A stretch of DNA of 64,000 nucleotides from a virus (lineage: Duplodnaviria > Heunggongvirae > Uroviricota > Caudoviricetes), in the IMG/VR virus record IMGVR_UViG_2913177423_000001, positions 19,415-83,414 of that record; one strand, written 5' to 3'. Of the stretch, positions 8,028-64,000 are shown in pieces. A program made the translations under genes and the position numbers. Within the stretch, counting starts at the first letter, position 1, and each line of letters begins with the position of its first letter. The notes below the pieces were generated by a model that made no database searches, was not told the DNA's origin, and was given only the letters and a program-made list of their open reading frames with translations.

Positions 8028-9388
8028 GCCTGGTTAATTGGGAAGAGCACCGCGCCAAATTTATAGCGTTGCGTGAAGAAAAAGGGATCACCGTAAAGGA
8101 ATACTGCGAGCAACACGACCTTAGCTTCAATACCGCCAGAAAGCATCTCAATATGAAAAAAAATGAGGTGCGGTCGCAGGTGAAGACTACAAAAAAAAGC
8201 ACCAAATCACCTGAAAAAAAACGGGCAGGAAGAGCAAAAAAAAGGCCAGAAGAGGGTACAGAAACAACAAAATTTACAGAAACTGACAATTCACAGAGCG
8301 GAAGTTCTTTCCGGAGCATGCCGAGAAAGAAAACTTCGGATCATAAAAATAACGACAATAATAACAATGAGATAAAAGAATCTGTCAGGAGATCATTGCG
8401 CGAAAAAATGGCGAAAATGATCCCCGCCGAAGATAAATGCGCCTCAAAAACCGAGGGATCTTCAGCAATGATCCCTGGCGGTGCTGTGCAGCGTGCCACG
8501 TTGCCCACTACGAGTGTGGCTCGCGACATGATGAAGAACGGCGCAGAAGAGCACCTGCGGTTAGCAATTCAAATGGCGCAAGAACGCGCACTTCAGTACC
8601 AAAGCATTGTTGATCAGGAGGCCGAACGCCTACAGGCGGAGATAGACGCCCTGGGTGATGAACAGCCAGAAGGAATGCACCCTGGGCAGCGACTTCTCGG
8701 TCTAATCAGTGACGCGGCCTACTACATGAACGATTTTATCAGTAGGTTGGCAGCGATATATCAGTCCGAACAAAAGCTGCGACAGGGTGATGAAAAACTT
8801 CGTCAGGGTGCTCGCCAGCAAGCATTCAGAGAGGCCGAGGCCAGAGAAAAACTCGAATTAGCACGCCTACAGGCCGAACAGCGCGGCAAAGAGATTGAAT
8901 ATCGAATTGGCGCTGACGCACGCGCAGCCAGAGTTATCGCCGCCGCTATACGTATGCGTGAGCGCGAGGAACTGGACGATATCGGTGTTGCTGAATACAT
9001 CGAGCGTCAGGGTGTCAGTGTCCCGGCTATCCTCGCGGCGCGCGCGGCAAAAGCTATCGATCTTCTCGAACCGCCAGTTTCTGACATCAATGATGTTGAT
9101 GATGAACAGCTGGACAAAGAGGCAAGGGAGTATGCATTGCTTCAGGCAAACCATTCTCAATGGCTGGCAGAGCGCCGGGCAGATGTGGCTACCATTGTTG
9201 AAGACCTGGGGTGCGGAGATTACGACAGCAATGGCGAGCGTAAGGCTGGGGAATTCGAGGCCAACGACGAAGAGTTAGATATTGACCCTTCGGCAACGGC
9301 TGAAATTTACGGTGATTATGATGCATCAGACGTAGGGTATGACGCCGGAGATGATGATATCGCGATAGAACCTCCGGAGGACGATTAA
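8024..9388 (+). CDS. pacA: terminase small subunit (PacA-like, N-terminal HTH DNA-binding)
   Basis: 454-aa ORF coupled to large terminase (stop/start overlap at 9388); N-terminal HTH-like segment, acidic C-terminus. Confidence 0.65.
   Translation: MSLVNWEEHRAKFIALREEKGITVKEYCEQHDLSFNTARKHLNMKKNEVRSQVKTTKKSTKSPEKKRAGRAKKRPEEGTETTKFTETDNSQSGSSFRSMPRKKTSDHKNNDNNNNEIKESVRRSLREKMAKMIPAEDKCASKTEGSSAMIPGGAVQRATLPTTSVARDMMKNGAEEHLRLAIQMAQERALQYQSIVDQEAERLQAEIDALGDEQPEGMHPGQRLLGLISDAAYYMNDFISRLAAIYQSEQKLRQGDEKLRQGARQQAFREAEAREKLELARLQAEQRGKEIEYRIGADARAARVIAAAIRMREREELDDIGVAEYIERQGVSVPAILAARAAKAIDLLEPPVSDINDVDDEQLDKEAREYALLQANHSQWLAERRADVATIVEDLGCGDYDSNGERKAGEFEANDEELDIDPSATAEIYGDYDASDVGYDAGDDDIAIEPPEDD
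8339..8473. promoter_or_regulatory. candidate pac (packaging initiation) site: cluster of five GATC sites
   Basis: GATC at 8339, 8391, 8419, 8457, 8470 within 135 bp inside pacA-like gene; P1 pac is a Dam-site cluster within pacA. Confidence 0.35.
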
Positions 9389-10896
9389 TGGCTGGCGGGC
9401 GCAAGATTAAATGCGTCACCAGCGATCCACGCTGGCGCGATTGGGTAATCAAATACCGCTACAACTTTACCAAGGCTGTTATTGATATTTTTGGATTGTT
9501 TCCCTCACCTCAGCAGCAGGAGATTATCCAGTCCGTACAGCAAAAAGGGAGCAGAACCACTGTTACCTCTGGTCACGGTACAGGGAAATCGTCGTTAACG
9601 GCTATGTTGTTGCTGATTTATTTGATTCTGTTCCCCGATGCCCGTGTCATCATTGTTGCTAACAAGATAGGCCAGGTTAAAACAGGCGTATTCAAATACG
9701 TTAAACAGTATTGGGCGAATGCAGTTAAGCGTCACGGGTGGTTACAGACCTATTTTGTCCTGTCTGACACCATGTTTTATGAACGTTCCCGCAAAGGGAT
9801 CTGGGAAGTTCTCTGCAAAGGTTATCGACTCGGTAACGAAGAAGCACTGGCGGGGGAGCACGCGGCACATTTGCTTCTAATTCTGGATGAAGCATCAGGT
9901 ATATCTGATAAAGCGATCGGCGTAATGACTGGCGCTCTGACTGAAGAAGATAACCGAATGTTGATGCTATCCCAGCCAACAAGGCCAAGTGGTTATTTCT
10001 ACGATTCGCACCATTCTCAAGCTAAAACCCCAGACAACCCGAAAGGGATCTGGACAGCAATTGTTCTTAACTCAGAAGAATCACCGTTCGTCACACCACA
10101 ATTCATCAGGCAGAAACTCCTGGAATATGGCGGTCGCGATTCTATTGAGTACATGGTTAAGGTGCTTGGTCAGTTCCCTCGGGAGATTAACGGCTATTTG
10201 CTTGGTCGTGATGAATGCGATCGCGCAGCGCGGCGCAAGGTGTTGTTGGAGAAAAACTGGGGATGGGTGGCAACAGCTGACGTTGGTAACGGGCGAGACA
10301 AGTCAGTTCTTAATATCTGTAAAGTGTCTGGTCACCGGGAAAAGCGGCGTGTTGTTAACTTTAAGATAATGGAAATGCCAGGGACTATGGACCCGCTGGC
10401 TTTTGCTGACTTTATATACAACGAATGCACGCCGGATAAATACCCGAATATTACAATCGCGGTTGACGCTGATGGTTTTGGTTCAGATACCTGTGCGCAG
10501 TTGGTGCGCCGTGGTGCTAATCCGGTACGTATTCGGTGGGGGAAACCCATGTTTTCGAACAAAGACAAGGAGCGTTTTGTTAACCAGCGTGCCTACGCAA
10601 ATATTATGGCTCGTGATGCCATAAAGTCAGGCCGTATGCGTATAGACAGTGACCCTAAAACGGCAGAGCAAGCGTCAAAAATCCCTTTTTTACTGAATGA
10701 AGAAGGGAAGATGGCGATGATGCGCAAAGAGCACATGCGGCAAAAGCTAAACATCAAATCGCCTGACCGATGGGATACCTACTGCTTCACTATGCTGGTG
10801 GACTATGTGCCTGCAAATGAAGATATCGGTGCGGAAATGGCTACCTTCCGCGACCAGGTTCTTGCAGACATAGAAATGCCGGATCTGGATATATAA
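9388..10896 (+). CDS. pacB: terminase large subunit (PacB-like)
   Basis: Walker A GHGTGKSS, Walker B LLLILDEASG, C-terminal nuclease-like AVDADGFG. Confidence 0.85.
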   Translation: MAGGRKIKCVTSDPRWRDWVIKYRYNFTKAVIDIFGLFPSPQQQEIIQSVQQKGSRTTVTSGHGTGKSSLTAMLLLIYLILFPDARVIIVANKIGQVKTGVFKYVKQYWANAVKRHGWLQTYFVLSDTMFYERSRKGIWEVLCKGYRLGNEEALAGEHAAHLLLILDEASGISDKAIGVMTGALTEEDNRMLMLSQPTRPSGYFYDSHHSQAKTPDNPKGIWTAIVLNSEESPFVTPQFIRQKLLEYGGRDSIEYMVKVLGQFPREINGYLLGRDECDRAARRKVLLEKNWGWVATADVGNGRDKSVLNICKVSGHREKRRVVNFKIMEMPGTMDPLAFADFIYNECTPDKYPNITIAVDADGFGSDTCAQLVRRGANPVRIRWGKPMFSNKDKERFVNQRAYANIMARDAIKSGRMRIDSDPKTAEQASKIPFLLNEEGKMAMMRKEHMRQKLNIKSPDRWDTYCFTMLVDYVPANEDIGAEMATFRDQVLADIEMPDLDI

Positions 10897-10921: not shown

Positions 10922-11959
10922 TTACCAGAGTTTGGCGGCGCGCTGTGTTTGGGAGAAAGTGAACCCGTAACGTTCTTCTATGGTTTTACCGTATCTTTTA
11001 CGGGCATCTGTCAGTTTTATGCCCGTAAGGTCATCTCCGGACATCATCATTACGTCTATTAACTCCAGATCCATTTTATTCAGTCTCGCCATTGCTTCGC
11101 GCGCAGTTTGTATTTTACGCTCAATGATATGGCGAATAGCCGGATCGGCTTCTTCAAGCATTTTGGTCGATTTGTTCTTTAAGCTCTCACTGCGGATATC
11201 GATGTTCCGCAAGATGTATGACTTCGCAACATAGCTTGGTTGGTGCTTCTCCAGATCGCGAACGCGATAAAGACTAAAATCACCAATCAGGCCACAAGGT
11301 ATCGACTCGACCCCAGAATAAATAGTAATGCTGCGACGTTCGCCGACATTATTAACAACGGGTACTGTGGTATCCGGAAGTTTTGCGAAAACTAAGGCGC
11401 CATGTGCGCCGACCCTGAATCGTGACAGAGTATTGCTGTCTTCGATGTTTGTTGTCAGCACGACATCTGTATATCCCTCTTTGCGCGCCCGGTAAATTTC
11501 ACCTTCAGGTTCCGCCGCAAAAAAGCGGCGCTCTTCTTCAAGCGCCCCAACAATTTGTGAAAAAATCTTGTTTTTCAGGCTCTTCTTAATAATTGCGTCA
11601 TACTTTTTGAGCAAATTTTCGCGTGTAAATGAGCGAGTAGTAGTCGCGCTTTGCACAACAATATGCGTGCTTTGATTCGTGTCCTCTATGATGATTGGGA
11701 TCGGAGAATATACAGACTCAACAATGTTAGACGCTTTGCCGTCGGCATTACGGCACAAGTCAACAAAGGCTTTCCATTCTGCGAGGCACTTTTCAGCTTC
11801 TTCTAGTACATTCTGGTCATGCGTTAGTGCAACGTGGCGGAATTCCTCGCCAGCATAACTGGTATCATGGAAAACAGAGTTTGCGACCACCAGCTCTTTC
11901 CACCGTTCAGCGGTTTGCAGGAACCGTTTGTACTCTTTCTCGATCGACTTCTTACTCAT
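10922..11959 (-). CDS. putative master immunity repressor (C1 analogue by synteny; no sequence-level match claimed)
   Basis: 345-aa ORF divergent from recombinase and convergent with pacB as P1 c1; operator motif copies directly upstream. Confidence 0.45.
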   Translation of the reverse strand: MSKKSIEKEYKRFLQTAERWKELVVANSVFHDTSYAGEEFRHVALTHDQNVLEEAEKCLAEWKAFVDLCRNADGKASNIVESVYSPIPIIIEDTNQSTHIVVQSATTTRSFTRENLLKKYDAIIKKSLKNKIFSQIVGALEEERRFFAAEPEGEIYRARKEGYTDVVLTTNIEDSNTLSRFRVGAHGALVFAKLPDTTVPVVNNVGERRSITIYSGVESIPCGLIGDFSLYRVRDLEKHQPSYVAKSYILRNIDIRSESLKNKSTKMLEEADPAIRHIIERKIQTAREAMARLNKMDLELIDVMMMSGDDLTGIKLTDARKRYGKTIEERYGFTFSQTQRAAKLW

Positions 11960-12152: not shown

Positions 12153-12184
12153 TAATTTTCTAACTTTAGATAATTGGCATTATT
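12153..12184. other. rox: rox/lox-like recombination site (14-bp inverted arms, 4-bp spacer)
   Basis: TAACTTTAGATAAT-TGGC-ATTATTTAAAGTTA; arms are inverted repeats with one mismatch; 160 bp upstream of recombinase gene. Confidence 0.7.
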
Positions 12185-12344
12185 TAAAGTTAGTATATAA
12201 TAATGATCAAACGATCAGTATTGACAGACTCAAAAAGTCATGGTTCGAATCAAGGGCTTAAATTTTAAATTCTCACGGATAACTAGCCTGTCATTTTTTG
12301 TTTTTTCGCGTAGCGACACCAATTTATAGAGGTGAAATGATTAC

Positions 12345-13373
12345 ATGAGTAAACTTATTATCTCCGGTAATCCTGGCATGTTTCTTCGTGATATTGGTGC
12401 TGAGTACCAGGAAGCCGCCAAAAATTTCATGCAGTTCCTTAATGACCAGGGCGCTTACTCACCTAATACACTGCGCGATCTGCGCCTGGTCTTTCACTCC
12501 TGGGCGCGTTGGTGCCACGCTCGTGGTCTTGCGTGGTTTCCGATCTCCCCGGAAGCTGCCCGCGAATACCTGCTTCAACTGCATGATGCGGATCTGGCTT
12601 CAACCACCATTGAAAAGCATTACGCCATGCTCAATATGCTGTTGTCACAATGCGGACTGCCGCAACTCTCTGATGACAAAAGCGTATCCCTGGCGATGCG
12701 GCGCATCCGGCGCGAAGCTGCAACCGAAAAAGGCGAACGCACAGGCCAGGCTATACCGTTGCGGTGGAATGATCTGAAATGGCTCGACGTGTTGCTGTCC
12801 CGTTCCGAGCGGCTGGTGGACCTGCGCAACCGGGCGTTTCTCTTCGTGGCATACAATACCCTGTTGCGTATGGCTGAAATGTCCCGCGTGCGTGTTCGCG
12901 ATCTGGAACAGACTGGTGACACTGTAACGCTTCACGTATCCCACACCAAAACCATCACGACCGCCGCCGGACTTGATAAGGTGCTCTCCCTCCGGACAAC
13001 TGCGGTTCTCAATGACTGGCTGGACGAGTCCGGACTACGTGATCACCCGGATGCGATACTTTTCCCGCCAGTACACCGGAGCAACAAAGCGCGGATCACC
13101 ACCACGCCACTAACCGCGCCCGCGATGGAGAAGATTTTCAGTGACGCCTGGGCGCTGCTGGGTAAGAGTGATGCCACCCCAAATAAAGGCCGTTACCGGA
13201 CGTGGACAGGCCACAGTGCGCGTGTTGGTGCCGCCATAGATATGGCTGAAAAACAGGTGTCTTTGGTTGAAATTATGCAGGAAGGTACATGGAAGAAGCC
13301 CGAAACACTGATGCGTTATCTTCGTCGTGGCGGTGTGACAGCAGGTGCCAATAGCCGCCTCATGGATTCATGA
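12345..13373 (+). CDS. dre: Cre-family tyrosine site-specific recombinase (Dre-like)
   Basis: 342 aa; blocks SWARWCHARGLAWFP, VSLAMRRIRRE, AYNTLLRMAEMSRVRVRDL, WTGHSARVGAAIDMA align with P1 Cre; cognate site upstream. Confidence 0.9.
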   Translation: MSKLIISGNPGMFLRDIGAEYQEAAKNFMQFLNDQGAYSPNTLRDLRLVFHSWARWCHARGLAWFPISPEAAREYLLQLHDADLASTTIEKHYAMLNMLLSQCGLPQLSDDKSVSLAMRRIRREAATEKGERTGQAIPLRWNDLKWLDVLLSRSERLVDLRNRAFLFVAYNTLLRMAEMSRVRVRDLEQTGDTVTLHVSHTKTITTAAGLDKVLSLRTTAVLNDWLDESGLRDHPDAILFPPVHRSNKARITTTPLTAPAMEKIFSDAWALLGKSDATPNKGRYRTWTGHSARVGAAIDMAEKQVSLVEIMQEGTWKKPETLMRYLRRGGVTAGANSRLMDS

Positions 13374-38126: not shown

Positions 38127-39032
38127 ATGAGATCTGTCGCTTTCAAAAACATCTTCATCTATCGTCTTTCACGTGAAGTTAACTGGAGTGCCGCAGAAGT
38201 ATCCGATGCTCTTAGCAAATTCGTGTTTACTCCTTGCGGTTCTCAGGACACAGCTAAAGTCGGTTGGACACCTGTTCTTGGTGACAACCTCACCCATGAA
38301 TACCAGGGTTTTCTGCTAATACAGCATAAGCGAGAAGAAAAAATTCTCCCTTCGCAGGTGCTCAAGGAAGAGTTGCAGAAAAAAGTCCTGAAACTCGAAG
38401 AAGAGCAAGCACGCAAGCTGAAGAAAACGGAAAGAGACAGTCTTAAAGATGAAGTCCTGCATTCCCTTTTGCCTCGCGCGTTCACGAGAAAATCACTCGC
38501 CAAAATCCTGATCGACCGCAGCAACCATCTGGTATTCGTTGAGGCAAGCAGCGCCAAAAAGGCAGAGGATCAGCTGGCTTTATTGCGAAAATCGCTCGGC
38601 AGCCTGCCCGTCATTCCATTCACACCACGCGAACCGCTGGAAATCACAATGACCGAGTGGTTTAAAAACGGCTTCCCTGCCGGATTCACAGCAGGTGAAG
38701 ATGCCACATTAAAGGCTCTGTTTGATGATGGTGGTGCCGTTCGCTGCAACAAAGTTGATCTACAGTCCGACGAGATTATGTCTCACATTGAGGCGGGGAA
38801 AGTAGCTACGACCGTTGCAATTAACTGGATGGACCGCGCGTCGTTCAGAGTAAACGATGATATGAGTATCAAAGCCCTGACATTCTGTGATGATCTCTAT
38901 GACCAGAATGACGATATCGACCGGGAGGATGTAGCACAACGATTTGATGCTGATTTCGTGCTCTTTACGGGCGAATTATCTGCACTGTTTAACGCGCTGG
39001 TGGAGGCCATTGGCGGTGAAGCAGAACGATAA
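38127..39032 (+). CDS. hrdC: recombination-associated protein RdgC homolog
   Basis: near-colinear match to E. coli RdgC ([59 protein letters not shown]). Confidence 0.85.
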
Positions 39033-39048
39033 TAACCGACCGCTTGTT

Positions 39049-39696
39049 GTGAGTGTGTGTGATTTTACGGGGGGAATGGTTGCCCCCTGGCTGGAATACG
39101 GTGTCGATGCCGCTATCGTCGATCCACAGCACTTATCGACCAGTGACGAGCTGATGCAATCAGGTGCCGTTCTGACGCGTATTAGTGCGATCATCGATAG
39201 CGATGAAGTATACGCTTTTCTCCGTAAGAATTTGCAGCGCATCGTGTTTCTGGCCGGGTTCCCACCGTGTACTGACCTGGCTGTTTCCGGCGCGCGCTGG
39301 TTTTCGGACAAGGCTAATAAAGATCCGGTCTTCCAGTTCAAAGCAATGCAGGTTGTCTGGCAGTGTTATGACATTGCAAAGATGATCGGTTGTCCGTACA
39401 TGATTGAAAATCCGGTCAGCAAAATATCGACATTCTGGCGTAAGCCAGATCACATCTTTCACCCTTACTTCTTCACTGCATATTGTCAGGAAGATAACTA
39501 CACCAAAAAAACATGCCTCTGGAGCGGCCAGGGCTTTGTCATGCCTGATGCCCTAATGGACGAATCATTAGGCAAGCCAGATAACAGAATCCATGCCGCG
39601 CCACCAGGGCCTGACAGGGCTAATTTTAGAAGTGCTACTCCACATGGATTCGCAAAGGCAGTTTTCGAAGCGAATAAGGGGGTGCTCTATGAGTAA
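39049..39696 (+). CDS. putative DNA (cytosine-5) methyltransferase-like protein (short)
   Basis: motifs CDFTGG, FPPC (PC-motif) and IENP (ENV-like); GTG start inferred. Confidence 0.5.
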   Translation: MSVCDFTGGMVAPWLEYGVDAAIVDPQHLSTSDELMQSGAVLTRISAIIDSDEVYAFLRKNLQRIVFLAGFPPCTDLAVSGARWFSDKANKDPVFQFKAMQVVWQCYDIAKMIGCPYMIENPVSKISTFWRKPDHIFHPYFFTAYCQEDNYTKKTCLWSGQGFVMPDALMDESLGKPDNRIHAAPPGPDRANFRSATPHGFAKAVFEANKGVLYE

Positions 39697-40594
39697 ATCT
39701 ATAGCAAGCATAGCCATAGAAAAACGGGATACGATGGCTGAAATTAGCTATATGCGCACCATTCGGACTCCGGATGAATATGAGCGTCCGATCTTCAAAT
39801 GGGTAGGTGGTAAATTCTCAGAATTGCCTACAGTGCTTGAGCATCTACCACACGGCAAGCGGTTAATAGAACCGTTCGTTGGTGGCGGTTCCGTATTTAC
39901 GAATGCAGGATTTCGCCACAACCTGCTTAATGATATTAACGGTGACCTGATTAACTTCTATCAGACATTGCAGCGGGAAGGACATTCGCTCGTCACGCTG
40001 TCATATAGTTTTTTCAAAAATTACAACAACGCTGACGCTTACCTCGAAGTGCGTGAGGCATTTAACAGAGGAAAGTATGACCAGCTACATCATGCTGCCG
40101 CCTTTTTGTACCTTAATCGGCACTGTTTTAATGGCGTAACACGGTACAACCAAAATGGCGATTTCAACGTGGGGTATGGCAAATACAAAGCGCCCTACTT
40201 CCCACATGCAGAGATGGAGGCGTTTTTGGCTGATGACGTACTCAAAAACACATCCTTTGTATCAGGTGACTTTGCTGGCGTCATCGAGGCGGCTGGTGAA
40301 GACGATGTGATTTTTTGCGATCCGCCGTATGAACCGCTGCCGGATACAGAGGGATTTACCAGCTATTCAGGAAATAGCTTCCGTTTCGATGAACAAAAAA
40401 GGCTTGTATCACTGTTGGTGGCTGCCCACCAGCGCGGCGCGAAGGTAGTGATAACAAACAGTGGCGCGCCCAAAATTCGCGAATTGTACGAAAGAAACGG
40501 TTTTAAGCTGTACCACATGCCAGCCAGACGGTCCGTGTCATGCAAAGCATCCACGCGAATAGTCGCTAACGATATCATTGCAACGCTCAAATAG
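39689..40594 (+). CDS. dam: DNA N6-adenine methyltransferase (Dam family)
   Basis: KWVGGK motif and catalytic DPPY; ATG overlapping upstream stop. Confidence 0.8.
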   Translation: MSKSIASIAIEKRDTMAEISYMRTIRTPDEYERPIFKWVGGKFSELPTVLEHLPHGKRLIEPFVGGGSVFTNAGFRHNLLNDINGDLINFYQTLQREGHSLVTLSYSFFKNYNNADAYLEVREAFNRGKYDQLHHAAAFLYLNRHCFNGVTRYNQNGDFNVGYGKYKAPYFPHAEMEAFLADDVLKNTSFVSGDFAGVIEAAGEDDVIFCDPPYEPLPDTEGFTSYSGNSFRFDEQKRLVSLLVAAHQRGAKVVITNSGAPKIRELYERNGFKLYHMPARRSVSCKASTRIVANDIIATLK

Positions 40595-62769: not shown

Positions 62770-64000
62770 ATGGGAGCTGATAAAACGAAAAGCATAATGA
62801 CACTATCTTCACGTGTCACGCAGCCACTGCTTGCTGATGTTCAATATTTCGAACTGTATAGTAGTTCGGCTCTTAACAGGAAGTTAAAAAATATTGTTTT
62901 GCCAGGTTTTTACTGCGGATTTGAACCAGTTCCCGGCACAGGATTGAGTGTCCGTATTACTTCTGAAAATTCAGATGGTAAGGGTGCTGCTTCAGTAGAT
63001 GTAAATAATGTTCAGATATCCGTTCAACAAATAGAAGATGTGATTGTTCCGGTAAAGGCCGGGGCTACGAACATTATTGTGCTGGAAGCTAATTTTGAAC
63101 ATGGTGTAAAAACTACCCAGGTAGATATCACATCTTCTGTCAGTGCTGCCAGAATATACGCTCGCACGGACAACACTATCGGGCAGAATCAAATTGAATT
63201 ATGTCGAGTTGTCGTGCCTAGCGGTGCTACAGCCGTGACTAAAGAAATGATTGTGCTTAAATACCGCGTCAATCGTGCTGTTGGCGTTGAGTTCTCTAAT
63301 GAAATAAGCAGTACAGAAGAGAGAAAAGCGGCTACTCCCCTGGCTGTCAAAACCCTCCATGATTTGGTTGATACAAAAGCCCCGATCGACAGCCCGAATC
63401 TGACAGGGACGCCAACTTCGCCTACACCAGAACCTGGTACAAACAACACACAGATCGCAAATGCGGCCTTTGTCTATGCGGCTATAAATGCGCTGATCAA
63501 TGGCGCACCAGGGACTCTGGATACACTGAAAGAAATTGCGTCCGCCATCAACAACGATCCGAAGTTCAGTGAAACTATTAATAAAGCACTGGCTCTTAAA
63601 GCACCTTTGGCAAGTCCTGCATTAACGGGAATCCCTACTGCGCCTACCGCTGCACAGGGAACAAATAATACTCAGATCGCTACGACTGCTTACGTACGGG
63701 CTGCTATATCTGCATTGGTCGGCTCATCACCAGAAGCTCTTGATACCCTGAATGAGCTTGCAGCAGCACTTGGCAATGACCCGAACTTTGCGACAACAAT
63801 GACAAATGCGCTGGCAGGCAAACAGCCCCTTGACGCAACTTTAACCGCACTTGCGGGGCTTGCAACTGGCGCAAATAAATTGCCGTACTTTACAGGTAAA
63901 GATACTGTTGCCCAGACTGATTTAACTTCAGTCGGTCGCGATATCCTGGCTAAAACAAGTGTCCTTGCTGTTATCCAATACCTTGGTTTAAGAGAACTCG
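62770..64000 (+). CDS. tail fiber protein, N-terminal part (3-prime truncated by window end)
   Basis: repeated SPxLTGxPT(A/S)PT..GTNNTQIA(N/T)(A/T)A(F/Y)V modules and KLPYFTGKDTVAQTDLTSVGRDILAK; frame open to last base; not in ORF track. Confidence 0.75.
   Translation, partial: MGADKTKSIMTLSSRVTQPLLADVQYFELYSSSALNRKLKNIVLPGFYCGFEPVPGTGLSVRITSENSDGKGAASVDVNNVQISVQQIEDVIVPVKAGATNIIVLEANFEHGVKTTQVDITSSVSAARIYARTDNTIGQNQIELCRVVVPSGATAVTKEMIVLKYRVNRAVGVEFSNEISSTEERKAATPLAVKTLHDLVDTKAPIDSPNLTGTPTSPTPEPGTNNTQIANAAFVYAAINALINGAPGTLDTLKEIASAINNDPKFSETINKALALKAPLASPALTGIPTAPTAAQGTNNTQIATTAYVRAAISALVGSSPEALDTLNELAAALGNDPNFATTMTNALAGKQPLDATLTALAGLATGANKLPYFTGKDTVAQTDLTSVGRDILAKTSVLAVIQYLGLREL

What the first reader, a model, noticed from the sequence alone, without database searches (positions are those of the whole stretch)
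8339..8473. GATC cluster inside the pacA-like gene: candidate methylation-sensitive pac site
Five GATC sites lie within 135 bp, where about 0.5 is expected by chance, in the low-complexity linker-coding part of the small terminase gene. P1 pac is a cluster of Dam sites within pacA and cleavage depends on methylation; this element also encodes its own Dam-family methylase.
Basis: partly seen in the sequence, partly recalled or inferred. Interest (0 to 1): 0.55.

Follow-up and report, generated by a model that had tools for sequence, protein, structure and literature searches.

The report
Likely packaging site of D6-like phage
The five GATC sites inside the small-terminase gene of this D6-like plasmid-phage are almost certainly its DNA packaging start site, the counterpart of the methylation-controlled pac site of phage P1; that is expected for a P1 relative, and its only unusual features are a different recognition word and a different layout.

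Summary
In detail: GATC occurs at 8339, 8391, 8419, 8457 and 8470, inside pacA (8024-9388) of a phage-plasmid 92% identical to phage D6. Taken alone the cluster is not significant: a 64-kb window with 216 GATCs gives 5 in 135 bp in 18% of random placements. Comparison makes the case. All five GATCs sit at the same gene positions in three D6-clade lineages only 70-75% identical. In that linker only 11% of 4-mers are invariant. Codons supplying GATC bases never vary, while the next synonymous positions do. The same octamer (ATGATCCC/GGGATCAT) is read in three different reading frames, so the constraint is on DNA, not peptide. Eighteen lineages of the wider P1 family carry 123 GATCs in this part of pacA against 30 expected, and the experimentally defined P1 hexamers show the same conservation pattern. 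The element encodes a Dam-family methylase, and a rox site lies 3.7 kb downstream, as lox does in P1. The best reading is a P1-type pac site, probably gated by Dam methylation. It differs from P1 in its word (TGATCC rather than TGATCA/G) and in having one cluster with no clear left arm. Cleavage and dependence on methylation are inferred, not shown. Interest is modest.

The parts
8339..8473 (.). Array of five GATC-containing elements: the candidate pac site core
   Evidence: All five lie at identical gene positions (316, 368, 396, 434, 447) in 22 of 24 unique D6-clade sequences and in three deep lineages 70-75% identical.
8337..8344 (-). Octamer 1: CGGATCAT on the + strand, which reads ATGATCCG on the - strand (codons D106-H107)
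   Evidence: GGATCA is present in all 24 unique D6-clade sequences. The GAT codon is invariant, while the next codon varies between CAT and CAC.
8389..8396 (-). Octamer 2: GAGATCAT on the + strand (ATGATCTC on the - strand), one base off the consensus GGGATCAT
   Evidence: inverted repeats I4 and I5 with octamers 3 and 5. Codon 123 switches between Arg AGA and Gly GGA while keeping GA, and the Ser124 TCA codon is invariant.
8417..8424 (+). Octamer 3: ATGATCCC (codons M-I-P 132-134)
   Evidence: Present in 23 of 24 unique sequences. The Ile133 ATC codon is invariant, while the third base of Pro134 varies. It forms direct repeat D4 with octamer 5 at a spacing of 51 bp.
8455..8462 (-). Octamer 4: GGGATCTT on the + strand, one base off GGGATCAT
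   Evidence: Other lineages have GGGATCAT or GAGATCAT here. The GATC is invariant while codon 145 switches between Gly and Arg.
8468..8475 (+). Octamer 5: ATGATCCC (codons M-I-P 149-151)
   Evidence: Present in all 24 unique sequences. The Ile150 ATC codon is invariant, while the third base of Pro151 varies.
8362..8374 (.). IHF-like sequence TAACAATGAGATA in the AT-rich gap between octamers 1 and 2 (tentative)
   Evidence: It has 2 mismatches to WATCAANNNNTTR, and such matches occur about 10 times per kb in the window, so it is weak on its own. It resembles the annotated P1 pac IHF site AAACAAAGAGTTA, and its ATAACA core is invariant in the D6 clade.
8084..8091 (-). Outlying GGGATCAC at pacA position 63, a possible sixth element
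   Evidence: Identical in all 24 unique D6-clade sequences. It lies in the conserved helix-turn-helix coding part, so the evidence is weak.
8024..9388 (+). pacA, the DNA-recognition (small) subunit of the pacase, which contains the site
   Evidence: PHROG 1711 terminase, 1.6e-174.
9388..10896 (+). pacB, the large terminase/pacase subunit
39593..40594 (+). Dam-family N6-adenine DNA methyltransferase of the element
   Evidence: The D6 homologue is annotated as a site-specific DNA-adenine methylase.
12161..12192 (+). rox-like recombination site, 3.7 kb downstream of the array
   Evidence: One mismatch to the annotated D6 rox site. In P1, lox lies 4.0 kb downstream of the pac cleavage site.

Best explanation
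The array at 8339-8473 is the core of this D6-like phage-plasmid's pac site, where headful DNA packaging starts. It is the functional counterpart of the P1 pac site. The proposed mechanism has five steps. First, late in lytic growth the PacA subunit uses its N-terminal helix-turn-helix domain to bind the repeated octamers ATGATCCC/GGGATCAT, which lie in both orientations inside its own gene. Second, PacA-PacB, possibly helped by host bending proteins, cuts the concatemer in or next to the array. Third, packaging runs towards pacB, c1 and rox, so the first headful carries rox at both ends. Fourth, because every element has a GATC core, cutting is probably allowed only when the sites are fully adenine-methylated, by host Dam or by the element's own Dam-family enzyme. 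Fifth, newly replicated, hemimethylated copies would then be spared, which limits cutting to one start per concatemer and to late times. What is shown here: the sites exist, the constraint on them is at the DNA level, they lie in the pac-equivalent part of pacA, and the methylase is present. What is inferred from P1: binding by PacA, cleavage, packaging direction and dependence on methylation.
For: (1) Context: the gene order is lpa-pacA-pacB-c1-rox-dre, as in D6 and P1. (2) Position: the mapped P1 pac hexamers lie at pacA positions 195-348 with cleavage at 275-285, and the sites here lie at 316-450, in the linker after the helix-turn-helix domain. (3) Conservation: three D6-clade lineages 70-75% identical keep all five GATCs in place. 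In the linker only 11% of 4-mers are invariant, so five out of five has a probability of about 1.6e-5. (4) Constraint on DNA rather than protein: the codons supplying GATC bases (GAT106, TCA124, ATC133, ATC150) are invariant, against 32% for comparable codons gene-wide. The synonymous positions just outside the sites vary. Gly/Arg swaps at codons 123 and 145 keep the GA. The same octamer is read as D-H, G/R-S and M-I-P in three frames. (5) Turnover: a 56%-identical PacA gene (L008) has lost two sites, gained two nearby, and carries three more upstream. (6) Family-wide pattern: 18 lineage representatives carry 123 GATCs at pacA positions 130-520 against 30.1 expected. (7) Positive control: six of the seven experimentally defined P1 hexamers are retained in place in a relative with 63% identity in the linker. 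(8) The flanking base of the hexamer covaries with the predicted recognition helix of PacA: NTAR-K goes with GGATCA/TGATCC and NTAR-R with TGATCA. (9) Three of the window's seven ATGATCC heptamers lie in the array, p=5e-4. (10) A Dam-family methylase is encoded. (11) rox lies 3.7 kb downstream, as lox lies 4.0 kb from P1 pac. (12) P1 background: the 161-bp pac site has seven TGATCA/G hexamers, and synonymous recoding of them lowers P1 titre about 9-fold (PMC10028697). Dam methylation of pac is required for P1 packaging (PMC12707154).
Against: No virion-end, cleavage or methylation data exist for this element or, as far as I could read, for D6. None of the five sites is a P1-type TGATCA/G hexamer. 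The P1 layout of two arms (4+3) around a spacer of about 95 bp is not seen. The D6 clade has no cluster at the position of P1's left arm. Two of the five octamers in this lineage are one base off the consensus. Two natural near-identical variants have each lost one GATC, so single sites are dispensable or those copies are impaired. The IHF-like motif is not significant on its own. The cluster alone is not significant in the window. The lineages compared are related, so counts across them are not independent.
Confidence: 0.7

Rival explanations
1. It is the pac site, but the GATC core is only part of the PacA recognition word. Methylation would then play no gating role in this lineage.
For: Dependence on methylation was not testable here. 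The flanks of the word differ from P1, so the recognition chemistry may differ too. Sites can be lost singly in nature.
Against: The GATC core is kept in every lineage of the family while the flanking base changes between T, G and C. That pattern is what a requirement for Dam methylation would produce. The element keeps its own Dam-family gene. In P1 the dependence has been demonstrated (PMC12707154).
Confidence: 0.13
2. It is a Dam/SeqA-responsive regulatory array that times expression of pacA or pacB, or sequesters new DNA. It would not be the packaging start, and pac would lie elsewhere.
For: Clustered GATCs are known SeqA and Dam regulatory targets (general knowledge). No end-mapping data place pac here.
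Against: The array sits where pac was mapped in P1. The repeated unit is a specific octamer that covaries with the PacA helix, which a bare GATC array for SeqA would not need. There is no promoter-like context, and no iterons or DnaA boxes lie nearby. No other comparable array exists in the 64 kb examined.
Confidence: 0.1
3. The conservation reflects protein function: short peptide motifs (M-I-P twice, D-H, G-S) in the PacA linker. The GATCs would be a by-product.
For: The residues over the sites are conserved in the D6 clade, and M-I-P is kept in L008.
Against: The same DNA octamer encodes three unrelated peptides in three frames. Gly/Arg replacements keep the GATC. Synonymous positions inside the sites are frozen while adjacent ones vary. 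Other lineages place the sites in different peptides, such as D-H repeats at a 12-bp period in Pantoea.
Confidence: 0.05
4. It is a chance cluster with no function.
For: At least 5 GATCs in some 135-bp stretch arise in 18% of random placements in a window like this one.
Against: The sites are conserved across three deep lineages (about 1.6e-5), GATC is enriched in this part of pacA across the family (123 against 30), and heptamers cluster here (5e-4).
Confidence: 0.02

Closest known systems
Bacteriophage P1 pac site (HEX4 - IHF site - cleavage site - HEX3, inside pacA; cleavage by PacA/PacB regulated by Dam methylation)
   Same: It lies inside the 5' third of pacA, in the linker after the helix-turn-helix domain. 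It consists of repeated short elements, each with a GATC core. The phage encodes its own Dam-type methylase. The same pacA-pacB operon is present, and a Cre/Dre-type recombination site lies about 4 kb downstream (PMC10028697).
   Different: The word is TGATCC/GGATCA (extended ATGATCCC), not TGATCA/G, so it is asymmetric and has an orientation: -,-,+,-,+. There are five elements in one 135-bp cluster instead of 4+3 around a spacer of about 95 bp. No cluster lies at the position of P1's left arm, and the IHF site is only tentative. PacA is 20% identical to P1 PacA.
Phage D6 (AY753669, MF356679), the type of the D6-like plasmid prophages
   Same: pacA-pacB is 92% identical in DNA, and the same five GATCs lie at the same positions.
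   Different: Neither D6 GenBank record annotates a pac site, although rox is annotated. I could not read the two D6 papers (Sauer and McDermott 2004, PMC534624; Gilcrease and Casjens 2018, PMC5800970), so the site may already have been described there.
GATC arrays in pacA of other P1-family plasmid prophages (Pantoea, Serratia, Xenorhabdus, Citrobacter, Enterobacter)
   Same: All carry GATC-core repeats at pacA positions of about 130-520.
   Different: Most are bipartite and use TGATCA, for example six or seven copies at a 12-bp period in Pantoea. Two distant lineages use CGATCA. Only the D6 clade, L008, L052 and L085 use GGATCA/TGATCC.

Membership tests
P1-type pac site | Lies inside the 5' part of the pacA gene of a pacA-pacB pacase operon | tested here: met
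   pacA is at 8024-9388 and pacB at 9388-10896. The array covers pacA positions 316-450, and P1 pac covers positions 195-348.
P1-type pac site | Several repeated short elements, each containing a Dam site (GATC) | tested here: met
   Five GATC-core octamers occur as direct and inverted repeats. They are conserved across lineages.
P1-type pac site | The hexamer sequence is TGATCA or TGATCG | tested here: not met
   None of the five matches. The contexts are GGATCA, AGATCA, TGATCC, GGATCT and TGATCC, and the clade consensus is TGATCC/GGATCA.
P1-type pac site | Two hexamer arms (4 and 3) flank a central spacer that holds the cleavage site and an IHF site | tested here: inconclusive
   No cluster lies at the left-arm position, and the spacings within the single cluster are 52, 28, 38 and 13 bp. 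An IHF-like 13-mer at 8362-8374 resembles the P1 site but is not significant.
P1-type pac site | The sequence is constrained as DNA, beyond what the coding function requires | tested here: met
   Synonymous positions inside the sites are frozen and those next to them vary. The same word occurs in three frames, and sites turn over in L008. The P1 control behaves the same way.
P1-type pac site | Cut by PacA+PacB, with virion DNA ends and the headful series starting here | not testable with these tools
   No virion sequencing data are available. One public contig (L076) starts right after the first GATC, which is an anecdote only.
P1-type pac site | Cleavage requires adenine methylation of the GATC sites | not testable with these tools
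   The only support is indirect: the GATC core is kept while the flanks change, and a Dam-family gene is present.
P1-type pac site | The phage encodes its own Dam-type methylase | tested here: met
   The gene at 39593-40594 matches TIGR00571 at 2e-73 and E. coli Dam at 3e-58. GATC specificity is inferred from similarity to Dam and DpnM.
Plasmid-origin type GATC cluster (oriC / P1 oriR-like, SeqA-sequestered) | GATC repeats lie next to DnaA boxes, iterons and a rep gene | tested here: not met
   The cluster lies inside pacA. The nearest DnaA-box-like matches are at 2201 and 11556, and no iteron family occurs in 8150-8650.

The most novel reading that the evidence does not exclude
The D6-type site could be a distinct architecture of methylation-gated pac site: a single array of asymmetric octamers (ATGATCCC) whose orientation, rather than a two-arm layout, sets up cleavage and packaging direction. 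A single Arg-to-Lys change in the PacA recognition helix (NTAR-R to NTAR-K) would have retargeted the pacase from TGATCA to TGATCC while keeping the Dam checkpoint. That would mean natural, mutually orthogonal pac/pacase pairs exist across P1-family phage-plasmids, and packaging specificity could be reprogrammed.
Probability: 0.3. Interest if true: 0.5.

Novelty: new member of a known kind. Interest (0 to 1): 0.35.

Why it matters
D6-like phage-plasmids are common in E. coli, Salmonella and Shigella: 121 plasmid records match this pacA. Some P1-family elements carry resistance genes. Knowing their pac site tells where headful packaging starts, and so which neighbouring DNA is moved most often. 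It also gives a second packaging signal, probably orthogonal to P1's, for phagemid and transduction tools like those built on P1 pac (PMC10028697). The comparison across the family also suggests a simple rule: the GATC core is fixed while the flanking base and one helix residue change together. That rule could be tested directly as a model of how a terminase and its site co-evolve under a methylation checkpoint.

Tried and rejected
- **Single-sequence cluster statistics.** R-scans for k=3 to 7 gave p=0.18-0.93, so this was rejected as sufficient evidence.
- **IHF consensus scan.** The only match in 8250-8550 has 2 mismatches, and such matches occur about 10 times per kb. I kept it only as a tentative feature.
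- **Shared 'TGTCAG' near the P1 cleavage site and at 8383-8388.** It is not conserved in the D6 clade, so I dropped it.
- **Phased A-tracts upstream (8154-8244) as a substitute for a left arm.** They are not conserved in the other lineages and simply reflect Lys-rich coding, so I dropped them.
- **Origin-like reading.** No DnaA boxes or iterons lie nearby.
- **Literature.** The two D6 papers, the P1 genome paper and Sternberg and Coulby 1990 are not held. Full-text searches found no description of a D6 pac site.
- **Structure prediction.** A single-sequence model was used instead and is of low quality (pTM 0.26).
- **Protein-level searches.** tblastn of this PacA against phage genomes found only D6. 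Pfam, NCBIfam and the PDB gave no match for PacA.
- **Contig ends in pacA.** Only one was found.
- **Metagenome scan.** Not run.

Full report
**What the window is.** The region holds lpa (7635-8027), a 454-codon pacA (8024-9388), pacB (9388-10896), a c1-like repressor gene on the minus strand (10922-11959) and a Cre/Dre-like recombinase gene (12345-13373). The pacA-pacB segment is 92% identical to Escherichia phage D6, a distant P1 relative that lives as a plasmid prophage. The D6 records name these genes pacA, pacB, c1 and dre. This pacA matches 121 plasmid records, mostly from E. coli, Salmonella and Shigella, at 67-98% identity. The PacA protein aligns end to end with P1 PacA at only 20% identity. 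It matches a PHROG terminase family at 1.6e-174.

**Checking the observation.** GATC occurs at 8339, 8391, 8419, 8457 and 8470. With 216 GATCs in 64 kb, 0.46 are expected per 135 bp. This is the densest cluster in the window for every k from 3 to 8. A cluster this dense somewhere in a 64-kb window is not rare, however. Random placement of 216 sites reaches 5 in 135 bp in 18% of trials, and no r-scan statistic falls below 0.18. With the pac-equivalent part of pacA fixed in advance (positions 130-520), the count is 5 against 1.3 expected, p=0.011. On the window alone the finding is therefore suggestive and no more.

**Comparison within the D6 clade.** I collected pacA genes from plasmid records and, using PacB as bait, from genome and viral contig collections.
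- Twenty-four unique D6-clade sequences fall into three deep lineages that are 70-75% identical across pacA and about 67% identical in its first 600 bases.
- All five GATCs sit at the same gene positions (316, 368, 396, 434, 447) in 22 of the 24. The other two are close relatives of the window, and each has a single GATC-to-GACC change.
- In the linker only 42% of columns and 11% of 4-mers are invariant across the deep lineages. All five GATC 4-mers are invariant, which has a probability of about 1.6e-5 if the sites are treated as independent.
- The alignment shows the sites as islands of identity in the least conserved part of the gene.

**The constraint is on DNA, not on the peptide.**
- Among codons whose amino acid is invariant and degenerate, 32% are invariant gene-wide. 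The four such codons that supply GATC bases (GAT106, TCA124, ATC133, ATC150) are all invariant.
- The synonymous positions immediately outside the sites do vary: His107 CAT/CAC, Pro134 CCT/CCC/CCA, Pro151 CCT/CCC, Ser146 TCA/TCT.
- At codons 123 and 145 the amino acid switches between Gly and Arg (GGA/AGA) while the GA of GATC stays.
- The repeated unit is an octamer, ATGATCCC or its complement GGGATCAT. It is read as D-H, G/R-S and M-I-P in three different frames.
- A more distant gene (L008, PacA 56% identical) has lost two of the sites, gained two nearby, and carries three more upstream.
- In the window, three of the seven ATGATCC heptamers in 64 kb lie inside the array, p=5e-4.

**The wider family and a positive control.** Every lineage of P1-family pacA that I recovered has GATC-core repeats at gene positions of about 130-520. 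The lineages include P1-like, Pantoea, Serratia, Xenorhabdus, Citrobacter, Enterobacter and several known only from viral contigs. Across 18 lineage representatives there are 123 sites against 30.1 expected from the flanking DNA. As a control, six of the seven experimentally defined P1 hexamers are kept at the same positions in a relative whose linker is 63% identical. The D6-clade array shows the same signature. In P1, the annotated cleavage positions lie at pacA positions 275-285, between hexamers at 195-229 and 325-348, with an IHF site at 256-268. The P1 site is described as 161 bp with seven TGATCA/G hexamers. Synonymous recoding of those hexamers lowers P1 titre about 9-fold (PMC10028697). 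Dam methylation of pac is required for P1 packaging, which makes the P1 methylase essential in dam-negative hosts (PMC12707154).

**How this site differs from P1.**
- None of the five sites is TGATCA or TGATCG. The clade word is TGATCC/GGATCA, which is asymmetric, and the orientations are -,-,+,-,+.
- In this lineage two of the five octamers are one base off the consensus.
- Most lineages have two clusters, but the D6 clade has a single one and nothing at the position of P1's left arm. The only outlier is a conserved GGGATCAC at position 63, inside the helix-turn-helix coding region.
- The flanking base of the hexamer tracks one residue of PacA. Genes with NTAR-K, STGR-K or NTLR-K use GGATCA/TGATCC. 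Genes with NTAR-R use TGATCA or CGATCA.
- That residue lies at the start of the third helix of the N-terminal domain in a single-sequence model (helix 35-57, pLDDT about 80). This fits a recognition helix, but the model is of low overall quality.
- I read this as co-evolution of pacase and site with the GATC core held fixed. That is an inference from a few lineages that are not independent.

**Supporting context.** A Dam-family methylase gene lies at 39593-40594. D6 annotates its homologue as an adenine methylase next to a putative cytosine methylase. A rox-like site at 12161-12192, one mismatch from D6 rox, lies 3.7 kb downstream of the array, and lox lies 4.0 kb downstream of P1 pac. In P1, packaging is understood to run from pac towards lox, so that the first headful carries lox in its terminal redundancy. 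The direction is from my own knowledge of the P1 literature. The roughly 112% head capacity is from PMC10999674. The same geometry here suggests the same direction of packaging.

**Rivals.**
- A peptide-motif explanation fails on the frame and synonymous-site evidence.
- An origin-like or purely SeqA-type array is unlikely. The unit is a specific octamer that covaries with PacA, no DnaA boxes or iterons lie nearby, and the position matches mapped P1 pac.
- Chance is excluded by the comparison.
- The live alternative is that this is pac but is not gated by methylation. The fixed GATC core among changing flanks, together with the resident methylase, argues against that, but nothing here tests it.

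**Limits.** No data on virion ends, cleavage or methylation were available. One public contig (L076) begins exactly after the first GATC of the array, which I treat as an anecdote. The two papers most likely to have discussed a D6 pac site could not be read. The GenBank records do not annotate one, and full-text searches found nothing. Prior description therefore cannot be excluded.

**Verdict.** This is the expected pac site of a P1 relative, so it is a new member of a known kind, with a diverged recognition word and layout. Interest is modest (0.35).

Noticed in passing
L076 / L114 (IMGVR_UViG_2537562191_000021), locus position 1: This public contig begins at pacA gene position 320, the base right after the first GATC of the array. 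It is the only D6-clade contig seen with an end inside pacA. It could be a real pac end or an assembly accident.
   Followed up: partly
window 12161-12192: The rox-like site has one mismatch to the annotated D6 rox (left arm TAACTTTAGATAAT instead of TAACTTTAAATAAT). It lies upstream of a 342-codon Dre/Cre-like recombinase gene (12345-13373).
   Followed up: partly
window 8024-8027: The lpa stop codon overlaps the pacA start codon (ATGA). P1 instead has an 85-bp gap that holds the late promoter LPpac. The late promoter for pacAB in this element must lie elsewhere and was not located.
   Followed up: no
PacA residue 40 (window 8141-8143) and homologues L003-L106: One residue of the predicted recognition helix (NTAR-K versus NTAR-R) covaries with the hexamer flank (GGATCA/TGATCC versus TGATCA or CGATCA) across the P1 family.
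   Followed up: partly
L078 (pacA position 368) and L089 (pacA position 396): Two natural near-identical relatives have each lost one GATC of the array through a T-to-C change (GACC).
   Followed up: no
window 63384-63678: The second-densest GATC cluster (5 in 295 bp) lies in a tail-fibre-like reading frame. The GATCs come from a repeated peptide (…TQIA…, cag atc gc), so this is a coding repeat and not a site array.
   Followed up: partly
window 38944-39696: A 250-codon ORF overlaps the start of the Dam-family gene and corresponds to D6's 'putative DNA-cytosine methylase', but it has no Pfam or NCBIfam match. In P1 the two activities are described as fused in one protein, Dmt (from my own knowledge).
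   Followed up: no
window 4398-4474, 4479-4554, 6027-6102: Three tRNA genes (Arg-TCT, Thr-TGT, Met-CAT) lie upstream of the lpa-pacA block. The D6 record annotates Asn, Thr and a doubtful Ser tRNA at the matching place.
   Followed up: no
L004 (pSa1423-90k) 2501-3866: This pacA copy has many frameshifts (18 stops in frame) yet keeps all five GATCs. This is probably a sequence-quality problem in that record.
   Followed up: no
L009-L012, L056-L072 (Pantoea/Enterobacter lineage), pacA positions 154-214: Six TGATCA sites occur at an exact 12-bp period and encode a (G/S)DH-type peptide repeat. This is the most regular array in the family.
   Followed up: no
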